From a virus (taxonomy: Duplodnaviria > Heunggongvirae > Uroviricota > Caudoviricetes): a stretch of 37,493 bases of DNA. The DNA lies in IMG/VR virus record IMGVR_UViG_2585427621_000010, one strand, 5' to 3'. Positions 6,001 to 12,000 of the stretch are shown here, piece by piece. The position numbers are program-made. Positions within the stretch are counted from its first letter, which is position 1. Every line of letters begins with the position of its first letter.

Positions 6001-9000
6001 ATCCGGGACCGTCTGGTCGCAGTACTGCGCAATGGCATACAGCGCCCACTTGTCCACATCCGCCGCCCCCAGGCGTTTTCCCATTCCGTAGCGCGGGTGG
6101 GTCAGCATGTCCCACAGGCACCAGGCAGGGTTGTTGCTGTATGCCGGTTTCAGGCTGCCGTCCCAGATGCCGCTGTACGTGCGTTTTTCCGGGTCATAGT
6201 TTGACGGCACCTGGATGATGCGACCGCGGATATGGTAGTTCACCGTCATCTGCTGACCGCCAAACTGCTCCGCATCCACCTGCAGCCCCACAATGGCCGT
6301 GTTCGGGTAGCACTGTTTCACATCGATGATTTCGGTGTATGACGACCACAGCGTTCTGTTCTGCAGCTGGTCCGTGGTGCTGTCCGCCGTCTCCCTGACC
6401 ATCCGGATGTTAAAGGGCCGGGGCGGCAGATTATCCAGAATCACCGACGCCAGGAACTGCGAGGTGGTCTTGCCGTTAATGGTGACATCCTTTTCCGTCA
6501 CCCAGTTACCGTTACGCTGCAACTGAATCAGCAGTCGGACGGATGCCGGGTTACGGTCACCCTGTGAGGTGGTCTGCACCAGTGACTGCACCCCGAAGGT
6601 GACCCGCAGGCGGTCAATGTTCGCGGACGTAATGGTGCGCGTCACCGGCTTTGCCTTCGTCACTTCCACGCCCAGTGCGGTTTCAGCTCCGGAGGACTCA
6701 AAGCCTTCCGGTGGTGTCTGCTCCTGCTCCCCGGCACGCCAGACCGCAGTCACACCGTGTATCACGGGATTACCGTCCGTGTCCGTCAGCGGGGTTTTGT
6801 TCACCAGAATACTCTGCAGCCCCTTCACCGGACCTTCAATCGGCCCTTCACCAATGGCGTCAATCACGCTCATCATCTGCGTGGACTTAAGATTGTCCTT
6901 TGCCTCTACCGGCGTGTGCCCCTTGCCGCCCCCTTTACCCACTCTGTCCCCCTCTCCTGTCTGATGTCTGAATCTGTTTATGCCAGAAAACAACAGGCAC
7001 CCCGGAGGGTGCCTGTGTCATGACGGAATAAAATTTCTGAAACTCTTCACATTTCCGGCAATTGCCTGTAGCCGCAATAATGACGCTGCATTACTTTTTT
7101 GATGCCTGAAAAATAACTCCATAACGTTAATCTTCATCGTTCTCTCCCGCAGCTCCGCTAACTCTGCGGGATTTTTTTATTTTCATCCCCGCCCGATAAC
7201 CACCACTTTCCCGTCTCCGCCCTCATCACGGGTGCTGATGTCCTGGGATATCCGTCGTGAACCAACCAGCATTTCACCATAAGGCACCGGCATCGGGTTC
7301 CCCTGGGCAATCATGTTATCCAGTGACGAAAAATACGTGTTCTGTTTACCGTTATCCGTCGCCCTGTACTCCGGTGTTTTTGCCTTCGGTGCCAGCATCT
7401 GGGCCACACCGCCCAGTATCATGCTGGCACCCAGTGAGAACAGCATCGTGGTGGCAGTCAGCCCTCCGGCACTCAGGGCTGCGCCCCACAACGCCATCGT
7501 TGCGCCGGCGGTGAAGAAAGAGCCCACGATGGCTGCTGCCCCCAGCACAATCTGCAGTCCGCCCTTTCCGGCTCCGGCCAGTCGCGGCACAATATGGATG
7601 ACCGCCCCCTCACCCAGAGGTTCGTGAAGACGGGCGTACACCGCCTCCGGTGCCGTGTCCTCACCGCGAATACGTATCTGGTACCAGCCTTCGTTCATCT
7701 GACGGCGGAATCCCGGCACCTGTAACGACAGCGCCCGGATGGCTTCCGCTGCCGTGTTCACATACAGGCTGAGGCGGCGGCCAAATCGTTGCAAATCCCC
7801 GTGAAGGCAGATGCGTGCCAGTGGCGGTGACGCCAGACAGAATGCGTTCGTCGTTGCCATTTTTCGGAATACCTCTCCCGTTTACTCAGTTGTTCAGGCA
7901 GATGGTGAAGCAGTTCACCGTTGCCGCAGTATATGGCGGCATGATTGGCCACCGATGCGCCAAGCAGCACAGCAGATATCGCCAGCCTGTGCAGAAGAAA
8001 TGGCAGCAATCCACGTGCGCCAAGCGACGCAGGATCGCCACAGTCATTCACGCAGCAATCGGCACGTACCCCAGCGCGATATGACGGAAAGGTTACGTCG
8101 CACCGTCCTCAACACGCCGGTCAGTCCACCAGCCAGATGGTATGATCCCGAACAGGGACAGTCCGTCACCCGTGCTCACGACGCGTCATGCGCACACAGC
8201 GGATGTGTCCCCAGCAGCAGACCACCAGGGCGGCAGAACCAGCGCCCACCTCCCAGCCAGACCTGCTGCAGCCATCTTCCCGCATCGCAAGTCGAAAAAT
8301 ACGCCTCCGGCTCTGCGGAGATATTCACGCGGGCTGGTCACCGTTCGCCCTCCGGGGTGCCTATCACGAAGCCGCACGACTCCGCAGGCGCACACCGCCG
8401 GGCATGCACCAGAATCGCTGATTCAGTCTGTGTCATAAAACAGGATTTACTGCGAAAGTTTATTGATGGAAAGGAAACCGCCAAAATTAGCCACCATGCC
8501 GCGCATCTCACACCCGCGCATGCATTTACTGCATCTGTCCTTCCGGATATCCGTGGTGGGGTTGTCGAACTCATCCGCCACTGCCGGACCGTTATACCCG
8601 CATTCATCGCCCCGGTAATCCCACATACAGGTGTTCGCCAGCATGATGCGACCGGGAAACAGCGCCCCGTCCGTCTCCGTCGGTGTCGCCAGCACAAACG
8701 AGGCCGTCATGGCCGTCAGCGATGACATCTGCTCCACCACCCACCGGTCCGTCAGCTCCTGCTCAGGGTCTGCCTCAGGATTGCCTGCCACAAAATTCAC
8801 CGCATACCAGAAACGGGCATACACCCGGCGGCGGACCACCGTGGCCCCCACCAGGCTCTGCAGGTCCTCCGCCATCCCGGTGACCAGACCAAACAGATTC
8901 GACACCGTCAGCGACGGTCTGGCACTGCTGCCCTTCCCGTTCATCTCAAAGCCACTGCCGTCAATCGGGTATGCCTGATATTGCCGCCCCTGCCAGGTAA

Positions 9001-12000
9001 CCGCCTCCCCTTTTTCATTCAGCTCATTGCAGAANAAATACCGCTCACCGCCCTGCGCCGTCAGGTCGATTTCCCAGAGTACCACCCGCGGTGACTGCTC
9101 TGATTTAACCGACTCGTNCAGACTTTCTTCGTGAATATCCTGCATCAGTTCACCACCTGCTTAAACTCCGCGCTGACTCGAACTCGACGCAACATCNCCG
9201 CGCAACATCCCACCCGGCAGACCACCCGCACAGGTCACCTTTATCTGCCGGTATGCATAGGGTGGCTTCCACAAAAATGCCTTCCAGCCTCCGTGCTCTG
9301 CCAGGAATGCCTCCAGATGTCGGGCCTCCTCCCGGGTCACGGAAAGCGTCACACGGTATGTTTTCAGGTCAGCATTCAGCCCTGCCGCCATACGCTGTGA
9401 GTACCCGTCACCAAACACACTTCACGCACCGATGGCTGCGAGTTCACCTCCATATCCGCTTCACTTCCAGCGAAGTTCACCCGCCCCCGTCTCGCCTCCG
9501 AACGCAGCGAGCTCATTCCCTTGCGCCTGCAACCCGCCTCATAGCTCGGCCCCACCTCTTTGCCCGTTCCGATCAGCCAGCGATCTGTAAATTCCAACCT
9601 CCGCTTCGCCTTCGCGAACACTCCCCTACTACCCGCAGCTCAAGCCTCCCCGTAATCCTCCGGTCCGAATGTTCGCGCGCNGCCTGAATGGCCGTCCCCG
9701 AGGAAGCAGATGCACCACCACCGAAAGCACCGCCAATGGCGCTGCCGATACGCCCGACAATGCCCACCATGGCCTGTTTAAGCAGGATTTCTGTCATCAT
9801 GGACAGCACCGAACGGGTGAATCCCCGCCAGTCTGCCTCTGCACCGGTCAGCATCGCCGCCATATTCTGTGCAATACCGTCAAAGGTCTGCGTGGCAGCA
9901 CTTTTAACCTGCGAAAAACTGTCCGTCGCACTTTCCGCCCACTCGCCCCAGCCGGACTTCAGCCCGGCCATCCAGCTTCCACGAAGCTGCTCCTCCGCAG
10001 ACCTGGTGTTCTTCAGTGCCGATGTGGCCTTCGCCAGCGCAGCCGGATTATCACCGTACACGTCCCGAAGACGCTGCGCTTCAGACTCCCGCTGCGCCTG
10101 ACGGTCAGTGAGACCGCGGGCTTTTGCGCTGATGGCGGCCTGCTTCGCGCTCTGCTGCTCTTCAAACCGCACCGCCTGCTGTGCCAGCTCATTCAGGCGT
10201 TTCTGGTATTCAACCTTGTCGCCCAGCTCAGCCAGCTGGCGTTTGTACTCCAGCGTCTCGTCTTTATGCGCCAGCAGGGATTTTTCCTGCTCAGATAACT
10301 GCCGTTTCGTGGCAGCCTCTTTCAGGACCGCATACTGATTTTCCGCTTTCCATAAATCGCGACGCTGCTGGCTGATTTTCTCATTCGCACCGCTGTGTTT
10401 TTCCAGCGTCCTGAGCTCGGTTTCAAGCGCCAGCAGGGCAGCATGCGCCTGGTCTTCCTGACGCTCACCGGCTGACACTTTGACTCCTGACGACTTCGGC
10501 TTTTTCAGCGTCGATTCATAATCCTTTTTCGCCGCCGCCATCAGCGTGTTGTAATCCGCCCGCAGGATTTTCCCGTCTTTCAGGGCCTTATTCAGTTCTT
10601 CCTGACGGGCGGTATATTTCTCCAGCGGCGTCAGCAGACGCTCATACGCCTTCTGCGCCTCTCCGGTATACTTCAGCTGTGATGCGTCCCGTTCGGCCCG
10701 GTCCCTGGCGGCCAGTTCACCGGCTTTTTCCATATCCGACTGCAGCGTGGCCGCTGCCAGCCCCAGACGGGCATTTTCCCGGTCATTCCATGCGCCCTGA
10801 AGGTTGGCCCGGAAAGAGGCGGTTTTTCCCCGGCGCTGGCTCCGGCTCTGGTACCACTGCCATTTTTTATCCGCCTCATCAAATGCCTTCTGTGCACTGG
10901 CGAGCATATCCGCTGAGGACTCAGGACGACCGATATCCAGAATGGCATCCCACATCGATTTGAATGCCTTCCCGGTTTTATCCGCCCAGGTCTCCAGTGT
11001 CCCCATGTTTTCTTTCAGGCGACGGGTCTGCTCATCAAAGCCTTTCGTGGCGATATCGTTCGCCGCCTGTAAGGCCCCGGCCTCATCACCGGAACGCTGC
11101 AGCTGCGCAACATACGCAATCTGCTCTGCCGTCACGTTACGGAACTGGCGCACCATCGCAATCAGCCCCGACGTAGGGTCGGTGGTCAGTTTTCCGAAAG
11201 CCTCTGCAACCTTGTCCACCTCCACACCGGATGCAGAAGCAAAACGCGCGACACTCTGGTTGATGGCATCAAACTGTTCACCACCACGCACACCGGCATT
11301 CACCAGGGCTGCCAGTGACTCTCTCGCCTGGTTAAACGTCAGCCCTGCTGCCTGCCCGGCTCTTGAGAGCGTCAGCATGCGATCGGCAGTCAGTCCGGAC
11401 TGATTACCGGAAAGAACCAGGGTTTTATTAAACGCTGAAAGCGTGGAATCTCCCTGGTACCAGGCGTACACCAGCGCACCTGTCGCCACCGCCAGCGAGG
11501 TGACCCCGACCATCGGCAGGGTGATCGCACCGGCAAGCCCCCTGAACATGGGGATCATCCCGCCGAAGGAGTCCTTCACCTGACCGCCCTGTTGCAGCAG
11601 GATCAGCCAGGGATTCTGACCACCGGCAAGCTGCGTGGCGATATCCGTAAACTGTGCGGGCAGGGTTCGCATGGCCGCTTTATACTGCCCGACGGAAATC
11701 CCGGCTTTTTGTGCAGCCAGCGCCTGGCGGCTCAGGCCCTGTTCAACAGCACTGGCGGTTTTTCTGACGTCGGTATCCAGACCTGAAAAATGACGCCTTA
11801 CCCGGCTCATCTGCTCATCGAAACGGACAGCATCCAGACTCAGGTCAATAACAAGATCACCAACCGGCTGGGACATATCTCACACCTCCCGGAATCCCCG
11901 CTGAAGCCATCATTAATGCGGCATCATCCACCATGACATCCGCCACATCCGCAGACGATAAAATATCGCGCCCTCCGTCCCCACCGAACCGGACGCCTCC

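What the first reader, a model, noticed from the sequence alone, without database searches (positions are those of the whole stretch)
7758..9700. Cluster of lesions in K, M and the 3' end of H, coinciding with N bases
K has an in-frame TGA after 32 codons and later frame changes. The N-terminus of M is in a different frame from its body. H loses similarity to tape-measure protein after about 9690 and is roughly 160 nt short before M. Four N bases (about 9035, 9118, 9197, 9681) lie in the same 2 kb, pointing to low-quality consensus. The alternative is real decay of the tail module, which would fit the E-V deletion.
Basis: partly seen in the sequence, partly recalled or inferred. Interest (0 to 1): 0.5.

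Follow-up and report, generated by a model that had tools for sequence, protein, structure and literature searches.

The report
Sequencing artefact in prophage tail genes
The broken tail genes H, M and K in this E. coli O157:H7 prophage are almost certainly not real pseudogenes: they come from poor-quality gap-closing sequence left in the deposited genome of strain SS17, so the finding is ordinary.

Summary
H loses similarity after aa 733 (window 9678). M has lost its ATG and is split over three frames. K has a TGA at codon 33 and later frame changes. Four N bases lie in the same 1.7 kb.

The cause is technical. Outside 7996-9646 the window is 99.84-99.91% identical to the EC4115 prophage. Inside, two patches (9680-9475 and 8340-8006) are the intact sequence with bases dropped one by one. 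In patch A, 203 of 206 bases are an ordered subsequence of the 390-nt reference (z = 13.6). The dropout rate per 40 bases ramps 2, 12, 15, 26, 29, 40 and then falls. At the end of patch B about 60 nt of K appear twice, once degraded and once clean, which fits an unmerged read overlap. Neither patch matches any of 5,426 complete E. coli genomes.

Exact protein look-up places the window in E. coli O157:H7 str. SS17. That genome was assembled from 165-nt Ion Torrent reads and closed by primer walking with Sanger reads. Real divergence in this prophage is substitution-only.

Interest is low.

The parts
9573..11876 (-). Gene H (tail tape measure) as it reads in the window: a 767-aa ORF. Residues 1-733 are genuine and the last 34 aa are nonsense created by the dropouts.
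   Evidence: tblastn gives 100% identity for aa 1-733 at 11876-9678. Pfam finds TMP_2 and Tape_meas_lam_C. The exact protein is AIF94174.1 of strain SS17, seen on one contig only.
9475..9680 (-). Patch A: the 3' end of H and the start of M, with about 187 of 390 bases dropped. N at 9681 marks its edge.
   Evidence: 203 of 206 bases are an ordered subsequence of EC4115 L001 5321-5710, z = 13.6 against shuffles. Dropouts per 40 nt run 2, 12, 15, 26, 29, 40, 17, 10, 14, 12, 10, 0. There is no match in 5,426 E. coli genomes.
9148..9480 (-). Gene M (minor tail protein): start codon lost in patch A, body intact, 3' end disrupted by the misjoin at 9177-9228.
   Evidence: Frame map. Pfam Phage_min_tail on 9161-9418.
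9177..9228 (-). Small insertion-type misjoin around N 9197. About 16 extra bases repeat GATGTTGCG and GAGTTC, as if two reads had been abutted with a short unmerged overlap.
   Evidence: Alignments; bin table (16 inserted bases).
8447..9145 (-). Gene L (minor tail protein L): full length, with two ambiguous codons (N 9035, N 9118) and one compensating indel pair at 8806/8811.
   Evidence: 98.3% identity over 232 aa. Pfam Phage_tail_L. Differences listed.
7758..8436 (-). Gene K (JAB/NlpC-P60 tail tip assembly peptidase), 679 nt here against 744 nt when intact. TGA at codon 33, centre scrambled, last 67 aa perfect.
   Evidence: Translation and tblastn. Pfam Prok-JAB on aa 1-32 and NLPC_P60 on the C-terminal fragment. 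The 97-aa fragment is AIF94171.1, a singleton cluster.
8100..8340 (-). Patch B1: progressive base dropouts in the middle of K.
   Evidence: 191 of 201 bases (8300-8100) are an ordered subsequence of L001 6875-7195, z = 11.8. Bin table.
8006..8099 (-). Patch B2: the degraded read tail runs on to L001 ~7300. It duplicates, in degraded form, about 60 nt that follow cleanly at 8003-7945.
   Evidence: LCS is 81/94 against L001 7180-7310 (z = 6.5) and 50/94 for the collinear model (z = 2.5). Alignments. Internal duplicate local score is 48 against a maximum of 43 in 1000 shuffles. No match in any E. coli genome at E<=1.
7945..8003 (-). The clean second copy of the duplicated K segment. Residual errors at 7962 and 7975 (1-nt deletions) and 7984 (substitution) look like the start of the next read or contig.
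7186..7761 (-). Gene I (tail assembly protein): intact. It marks the return to high-quality sequence.
   Evidence: 100% identity over 192 aa. Pfam Lambda_tail_I.

Best explanation
The lesions are a finishing artefact in the deposited chromosome of E. coli O157:H7 str. SS17 (CP008805), not mutations.

The H-M-L-K tail tip module is repeated in many lambdoid prophages of O157:H7 genomes. Reads of 165 nt from Ion Torrent could not assemble through it. The resulting gap of about 1.9 kb was bridged by primer-walking Sanger reads.

The good central parts of those reads give perfect L and most of M. Their untrimmed low-quality ends were taken into the consensus, and in those ends the base caller skips more and more bases and emits N. 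Where two such ends met, they were abutted instead of merged. That produced a degraded duplicate of about 60 nt in K and a duplicate of about 16 nt at the end of M.

The real SS17 prophage most likely carries intact H (859 aa), M (109 aa), L, K (247 aa) and I, as its close relatives do.

Shown: the dropout spectrum, the ramp, the duplicate, the uniqueness to SS17, and the published sequencing method. Inferred: the exact read layout, and that the tails are Sanger rather than another kind of low-coverage consensus.
For: 1. The flanks are 99.84% (1-7995) and 99.91% (9647-37493) identical to the EC4115 prophage, with only about 3 isolated SNPs in 36 kb. The interval 7996-9646 holds 307 dropped bases, 68 inserted bases and at most 25 substitutions including Ns.

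2. Patch A is a 98.5% ordered subsequence of the reference (z = 13.6). Patch B1 is 95% (z = 11.8).

3. The dropout rate rises monotonically and then falls.

4. The degraded duplicate of the adjacent clean K sequence is significant: 0 of 1000 shuffles reach its score.

5. Four of the six Ns co-locate with the lesions (P ~1e-4).

6. The patches have no counterpart in 5,426 complete E. coli genomes. Among these, 1,430 genomes carry the region at 80% coverage or more, and none exceeds 98.7% identity. EC4115 and resequenced EDL933 agree exactly on the intact lengths (348 and 282 nt between anchors, against 173 and 222 nt in the window).

7. The aberrant proteins occur only in SS17.

8. [quoted passage not shown] SS17 shows 139 homopolymer and 129 frameshift differences from SS52, against 26/18 for EC4115 and 7/9 for TW14359 (PMC5552260 Table 3).

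9. Natural divergence in the same prophage (window against EDL933) is substitution-only. Bins 1500-3499 have 44 substitutions and no indels, and bins 6000-7499 have 33 substitutions and no indels.
Against: No raw reads, traces or quality values could be inspected, so the read layout is inferred.

The enrichment of dropouts in homopolymers is only modest (odds ratios 1.15-2.08).

The clean stretch between the 9197 join and patch A is short (about 240 nt) for a good Sanger read.

The prophage is truly defective (E-V deletion), and relatives do carry isolated annotated frameshifts: TerL in EC4115, J in EDL933, and H and J split in Sakai. One real lesion hidden under the noise therefore cannot be excluded.
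Confidence: 0.93

Rival explanations
1. Real decay: the tail module of a prophage already crippled by the E-V deletion has accumulated true frameshifts, a nonsense codon and deletions in H, M and K in strain SS17.
For: The prophage is defective in every relative examined, with a truncated major capsid gene fused next to V. Isolated frameshifts are annotated in relatives: TerL in EC4115, J in EDL933, and H and J split in Sakai.
Against: About 400 events sit in 1.7 kb, while the remaining 36 kb differs from EC4115 by about 3 isolated SNPs. The spectrum is more than 10:1 dropouts over substitutions, whereas real divergence in this prophage has no indels. Also against it are the monotonic ramp, the degraded duplicate next to its clean copy, the co-located Ns, and the absence of these lesions from every other genome.
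Confidence: 0.03
2. A different technical artefact. The patches come from the reference-guided Ion Torrent consensus in a region of low or ambiguous coverage, where paralogous prophage reads were mis-mapped, and not from Sanger read tails.
For: The SS17 assembly combined de novo and reference-guided Ion Torrent assemblies. The window also has small indel clusters elsewhere (3959-4000, 5957-5984, 25776-25830) and differences in C-homopolymer length (19106, 23576).
Against: Ion Torrent errors are mainly homopolymer-length errors at a few percent (general knowledge). They do not produce 30-100% dropout ramps over 200-nt stretches. At 137x coverage a consensus would average such errors out. A unidirectional ramp ending in a duplicated overlap is what single-read tails produce. 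The patches match no paralogous allele.
Confidence: 0.04
3. A chimeric assembly in which segments of H, M and K were taken from a divergent paralogous prophage tail module in the same genome.
For: O157:H7 genomes carry up to 14 places matching this module, with a median of 2. Assemblers often collapse or swap such repeats.
Against: The patch sequences match no E. coli sequence at all. The first ~200 nt of the patch B query match K alleles only at ~78%. The patches are subsequences of the cognate EC4115 allele, not a different allele. The clean L/M stretch is the cognate allele.
Confidence: 0.005

Closest known systems
Prophage CP-933U (EDL933) / Sp14 (Sakai), the EspJ- and TccP/EspFU-carrying defective lambdoid prophage of E. 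coli O157:H7
   Same: The gene order is the same: yodB side, espJ, tccP, tail fibre, lom, J, I, K, L, M, H, T, G, V, truncated E, D, C, B, W, A, Nu1, and on to cI/cro. The E-V deletion is the same, as are the IS1203/IS629 insertion and the Arg-Arg-Ile tRNA cluster. Identity to the EC4115 copy is 99.8-99.9% outside the patches.
   Different: Only the deposited SS17 sequence shows the dropout patches, Ns and duplicates in H, M and K. EC4115, F7386 and resequenced EDL933 annotate all five genes intact. Sakai annotates M, L, K and I intact and H in two pieces.
Uncorrected errors in first-generation or hybrid finished genomes, for example the original EDL933 sequence with gaps and more than 6,000 ambiguous base calls, later replaced by a gapless resequenced genome (PMC4132626)
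   Same: Ambiguous bases and local errors concentrate in repeated prophage regions of an O157:H7 genome, creating false pseudogenes.
   Different: The strain and the technology differ: here Ion Torrent plus Sanger primer walking. I know of no corrected SS17 sequence, and none was in the collection searched.
Genuine prophage pseudogenisation (isolated frameshifts in TerL of EC4115, J of EDL933, H and J of Sakai Sp14)
   Same: It affects the same prophage and the same class of genes.
   Different: Those are single events in otherwise perfect sequence. They are not hundreds of graded single-base losses with Ns and a duplicated overlap.

Membership tests
Sequencing/finishing artefact (untrimmed low-quality read tails at gap-closure joins) | Differences from close relatives are dominated by missing or extra bases, not substitutions | tested here: met
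   307 dropped, 68 inserted and at most 25 substituted bases (including 4 Ns) in 7900-9800. Patch A is a 98.5% ordered subsequence of the reference.
Sequencing/finishing artefact (untrimmed low-quality read tails at gap-closure joins) | Error rate rises progressively along one direction, as in a read running out | tested here: met
   Dropouts per 40 nt run 2, 12, 15, 26, 29, 40 in patch A. In patch B they run 1, 9, 19, 20, 16, 11, 10, 6, 13, 8, followed by a duplicated tail.
Sequencing/finishing artefact (untrimmed low-quality read tails at gap-closure joins) | Ambiguous base calls co-located with the lesions | tested here: met
   4 of 6 Ns fall in the interval, P ~1e-4.
Sequencing/finishing artefact (untrimmed low-quality read tails at gap-closure joins) | Unmerged overlap (the same template represented twice) at a join | tested here: met
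   Window 8047-8006 is a degraded copy of 8003-7945. 0 of 1000 shuffles reach its score. There is a smaller duplicate at 9177-9228.
Sequencing/finishing artefact (untrimmed low-quality read tails at gap-closure joins) | Confined to one assembly; close relatives are intact | tested here: met
   The aberrant proteins occur on one contig only, that of SS17. The patches are absent from 5,426 genomes. EC4115, F7386 and EDL933 are annotated intact; Sakai has H annotated in two pieces.
Sequencing/finishing artefact (untrimmed low-quality read tails at gap-closure joins) | Sequencing history that can produce it | tested here: met
   PMC4321836 reports 165-nt Ion Torrent reads and closure by manual primer walking with Sanger sequencing.
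Sequencing/finishing artefact (untrimmed low-quality read tails at gap-closure joins) | Low base quality or single-read support in the raw data | not testable with these tools
   No reads, traces or quality files are available here.
True pseudogenes from prophage decay | Mutation spectrum and density in line with the divergence of the flanks and with natural variation in the same element | tested here: not met
   The flanks carry about 3 SNPs in 36 kb against EC4115. Natural divergence from EDL933 is 77 substitutions and no indels in the bins examined. The patch has about 400 events in 1.7 kb, mostly dropouts.
True pseudogenes from prophage decay | Lesions reproducible in independent sequencing of the strain, or shared with relatives by descent | tested here: not met
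   No relative shares them. Independent resequencing of SS17 was not available, so that half could not be tested.
Lambda-type tail tip module H-M-L-K-I | Pfam families TMP_2/Tape_meas_lam_C, Phage_min_tail, Phage_tail_L, Prok-JAB + NLPC_P60 and Lambda_tail_I in lambda gene order | tested here: met
   Pfam scan. Order and identity to annotated relatives. The Prok-JAB hit on the 32-aa K fragment (22.0 bits) is below the curated cut-off of 25.
Chimera with a paralogous prophage allele | The aberrant stretch matches another natural allele at high identity | tested here: not met
   No match for 9460-9700 or 7996-8125 in sensitive blastn.

The most novel reading that the evidence does not exclude
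One or a few real SS17-specific lesions in the tail tip genes of this already defective EspJ/TccP prophage, such as a genuine frameshift or small deletion in H or K, lie hidden beneath the sequencing noise.
Probability: 0.04. Interest if true: 0.1.

Novelty: not a real feature. Interest (0 to 1): 0.05.

Why it matters
The biological significance is essentially nil. The tail tip genes of this prophage are most likely intact in SS17, as in its relatives.

The practical significance is for data quality.

- The artefact has put nonsense proteins into public databases: AIF94174.1 (a 767-aa 'tape measure'), AIF94171.1 (a 97-aa 'tail assembly protein') and AIF94168.1 (a split J).
- A scrambled 18-aa stretch sits in a RefSeq esterase, WP_038431037.1.
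- SS17 is used as a reference super-shedder genome. Counts of SS17-specific frameshifts and homopolymer differences (129 and 139 against SS52) probably include many such errors.
- Comparative claims that rest on SS17-specific indels should be rechecked against a resequenced genome.

Tried and rejected
1. I looked for a natural allele matching the aberrant stretches with sensitive blastn against 5,426 complete E. coli genomes. It returned nothing for patch A or patch B2. For the patch B query only the first ~200 nt (8330-8121) matched, at ~78%, to K alleles. This rejects a paralog chimera or an exotic K/H allele.

2. My first guess for the source was the original EDL933 record (AE005174), which is known for its Ns. 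The window carries EC4115-type alleles, with 93 mismatches to resequenced EDL933 in 1-7995 against 4 to EC4115. Exact protein look-up then gave SS17.

3. I tested whether dropouts are purely homopolymer compressions. The enrichment is only modest (OR 1.15-2.08), so this is not a pure homopolymer (Ion Torrent type) error.

4. I checked the long antisense ORF 7811-8725 (+), 304 aa. It has no Pfam family, and the equivalent frames differ in the intact relative. I rejected it as a gene.

5. I looked for SS17, or a corrected SS17, in the genome collection. It is absent.

6. The SS17 paper does not mention tail genes, CP-933U or pseudogenes.

7. The FASTA files for L002 and L005 never appeared in the script folder. 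Sakai was therefore used only through its annotation table.
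Full report
**What the window is**

The window is a lambdoid prophage with its late genes on the minus strand. Its left end carries tccP/espFU (1-1014, proline-rich repeats).

The annotated equivalents are the prophage next to yodB, espJ and tccP in E. coli O157:H7 EC4115, F7386, resequenced EDL933 (CP-933U position) and Sakai (annotated 'prophage Sp14').

Exact-sequence look-up of four ORF products finds each of them on a single contig of 5,523,849 bp, the chromosome of E. coli O157:H7 str. SS17. The four are:

- the aberrant 767-aa H (AIF94174.1);
- the 839-aa J fragment (AIF94168.1);
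- the 97-aa K fragment (AIF94171.1, a singleton cluster);
- a 615-aa esterase (AIF94195.1 / WP_038431037.1).

SS17 itself is not in the genome collection used for comparison.

**Checking the observation**

- **N bases.** They are at 9035, 9118, 9197 and 9681. Four of the window's six Ns fall in the interval, P ~1e-4 by chance.
- **H.** It is 100% identical to the intact 859-aa protein for aa 1-733 (11876-9678). Similarity then ends, and the frame runs into a stop at 9573.
- **M.** It has no ATG. Its N-terminal residues, its body (aa 25-106, 9415-9173) and its C-terminus lie in three different frames.
- **K.** It starts at 8436 and has TGA as codon 33. It is scrambled until 7962 and then perfect for its last 67 residues.
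- **L and I.** Both are intact (98.3% and 100% identity).
- **Family assignments.** Pfam confirms all of them.
- **Length.** The interval is about 238 nt shorter than in relatives. The H shortfall is about 180-187 nt, not 160.

**Anatomy of the lesions**

Against the EC4115 copy the window is 99.84% identical over 1-7995 and 99.91% over 9647-37493. Only about three isolated SNPs separate the two. Between those points the picture changes abruptly.

Patch A (9680-9475):

- 203 of its 206 bases form an ordered subsequence of the 390-nt reference, z = 13.6 against shuffles.
- It is therefore the reference with about 187 bases removed one at a time and almost nothing else changed.
- Dropouts per 40 reference bases run 2, 12, 15, 26, 29, 40, then 17, 10, 14, 12, 10, 0.

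Patch B (8340-8006):

- It starts the same way: 191 of 201 bases are an ordered subsequence, z = 11.8.
- Its last 94 bases do not align collinearly.
- They fit much better as the continuation of the same degrading read to L001 ~7300 (LCS 81/94, z = 6.5, against 50/94, z = 2.5).
- The window then restarts cleanly at L001 ~7240.
- About 60 nt of K are thus present twice, once degraded and once clean. None of 1000 shuffles reaches the observed similarity.

A smaller join with about 16 duplicated bases surrounds the N at 9197.

In total there are 307 dropped, 68 inserted and at most 25 substituted bases in 7900-9800. Dropouts are only modestly enriched in homopolymers (OR 1.15-2.08).

**Controls**

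- **Natural variation.** Real variation in the same prophage is visible in the comparison with resequenced EDL933. Bins 1500-3499 have 44 substitutions and no indels. Bins 6000-7499 have 33 substitutions and no indels. Natural divergence here is therefore substitution-only, the opposite of the patch spectrum.
- **Reference lengths.** EC4115 and EDL933 agree exactly on the lengths between the anchors: 348 and 282 nt, against 173 and 222 nt in the window.
- **Uniqueness.** Sensitive blastn of the patches against 5,426 complete E. coli genomes finds nothing for 9460-9700 and nothing (E<=1) for 7996-8125. It finds only ~78% matches to K for the first ~200 nt of the patch B query.
- **Relatives.** Of 1,430 genomes carrying the region at 80% coverage or more, none exceeds 98.7% identity. 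The listed top hits, which include the sister super-shedder strain SS52, have intact annotated genes.

**Mechanism**

The SS17 paper (PMC4321836) reports the following.

- Ion Torrent PGM reads averaging 165 nt were used.
- An optical map anchored the assembly.

The tail tip module is multi-copy in O157:H7 genomes, with up to 14 matching places per genome. Reads of 165 nt could not resolve it.

The most economical account is that about 1.9 kb were bridged with Sanger walking reads whose low-quality ends were not trimmed.

- From the join at about 9190 to the end of patch B at 8006 there are about 1,185 called bases.
- About 850 of them are clean, and a tail of about 335 bases is degraded.
- This is the shape of an untrimmed capillary read. 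That comparison is inference from general knowledge, because the traces were not seen.

A later comparison by the same group counts 139 homopolymer and 129 frameshift differences between SS52 and SS17. The counts are 26/18 for EC4115 and 7/9 for TW14359 (PMC5552260 Table 3). This suggests an elevated indel error load in the SS17 record generally.

The window shows further small indel clusters at 3959-4000 and 5957-5984 (which split J) and at 25776-25830 (which scrambles about 18 aa of the esterase).

**Rivals**

- **Real decay.** The prophage is truly defective. The E-V deletion is shared by all relatives, and isolated frameshifts are annotated in TerL of EC4115, J of EDL933, and H and J of Sakai. 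Real decay still cannot explain about 400 graded single-base losses next to flanks with three SNPs, nor the Ns, the degraded duplicate beside its clean copy, or the restriction to one record.
- **Paralog chimera.** This is rejected because no natural allele matches the patches.
- **Different technical origin.** A low-coverage reference-guided Ion Torrent consensus cannot be excluded without the assembly files, but it fits the ramps and the duplicate less well.

**Verdict**

This is not a real biological feature and its interest is low.

Its practical value is as a warning. SS17-specific indels and the derived database proteins are unreliable.

A PCR across 7.7-9.9 kb would settle the matter. 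The expected product is about 238 bp longer than the deposit predicts. Any long-read resequencing of SS17 would do the same.

Noticed in passing
window 5957-5984 and 3959-4000 (gene J, minus strand): Two further small clusters of extra bases relative to both EC4115 and EDL933: +4 bases and 1 substitution in 28 nt, and +3 bases in 42 nt. The first splits J (1159 aa when intact) into ORFs 5959-6993 and 3456-5975. The latter is deposited as AIF94168.1 'Phage tail fiber protein'. They are probably the same kind of sequencing error.
   Followed up: partly
window 25776-25830 (SASA-family esterase gene 25045-26892, minus strand): Five 1-nt deletions, one insertion and two substitutions fall within 55 nt, for a net loss of 3 nt. 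The ORF stays open, but about 18 aa are scrambled (11 aa differences). The resulting protein, WP_038431037.1 / AIF94195.1, is found only in SS17, so a RefSeq protein 'variant' probably derives from an error.
   Followed up: partly
window 36413 and 36421: Two more N bases. Both are G in EC4115. They lie in the Shine-Dalgarno region and directly before the ATG (36422) of the cI-like LexA-family repressor gene.
   Followed up: partly
window 19106 and 23576: Single-base differences in the length of C-homopolymers against EC4115. At 19106 the window (C8) keeps the large terminase ORF open (17446-19431), as in resequenced EDL933. EC4115 (C9) is annotated 'frameshifted', so that difference may be an error or a real lesion in EC4115, not in the window.
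   Followed up: partly
Relatives annotate a 264-nt major capsid fragment ('missing C-terminus') overlapping the start of the V-like tail gene. The window is collinear with them there at 99.9% identity.
   Followed up: partly
window 1-1014 (+), repeats 230-993: This is the TccP/EspFU effector gene (337 aa), with tandem proline-rich repeats of 141 nt visible as off-diagonal BLAST hits. It places the prophage as the CP-933U/Sp14 type.
   Followed up: partly
window ~23750-24974 (+), ALIL pseudoknot 24031-24147: An IS1203/IS629 (IS3 family) insertion with its programmed-frameshift pseudoknot lies between the holin gene and the esterase gene. The same insertion is present in EC4115, EDL933 and Sakai.
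   Followed up: no
window 27972-28221 (-), 27029-27201 (-), 31137-31311 (-): A prophage tRNA cluster: Arg-tct, Arg-tcg and a CAT-anticodon tRNA that ARAGORN calls Met but relatives annotate as Ile (ileZ). Rfam also finds the sRNA STnc100 and the sok antitoxin RNA of a hok/sok (hokD) module.
   Followed up: no
window 7811-8725 (+): A 304-aa open frame antisense to K and L, with no Pfam family. The corresponding antisense frames differ in the intact relative, so it is an accidental open frame, partly created by the artefact.
   Followed up: yes
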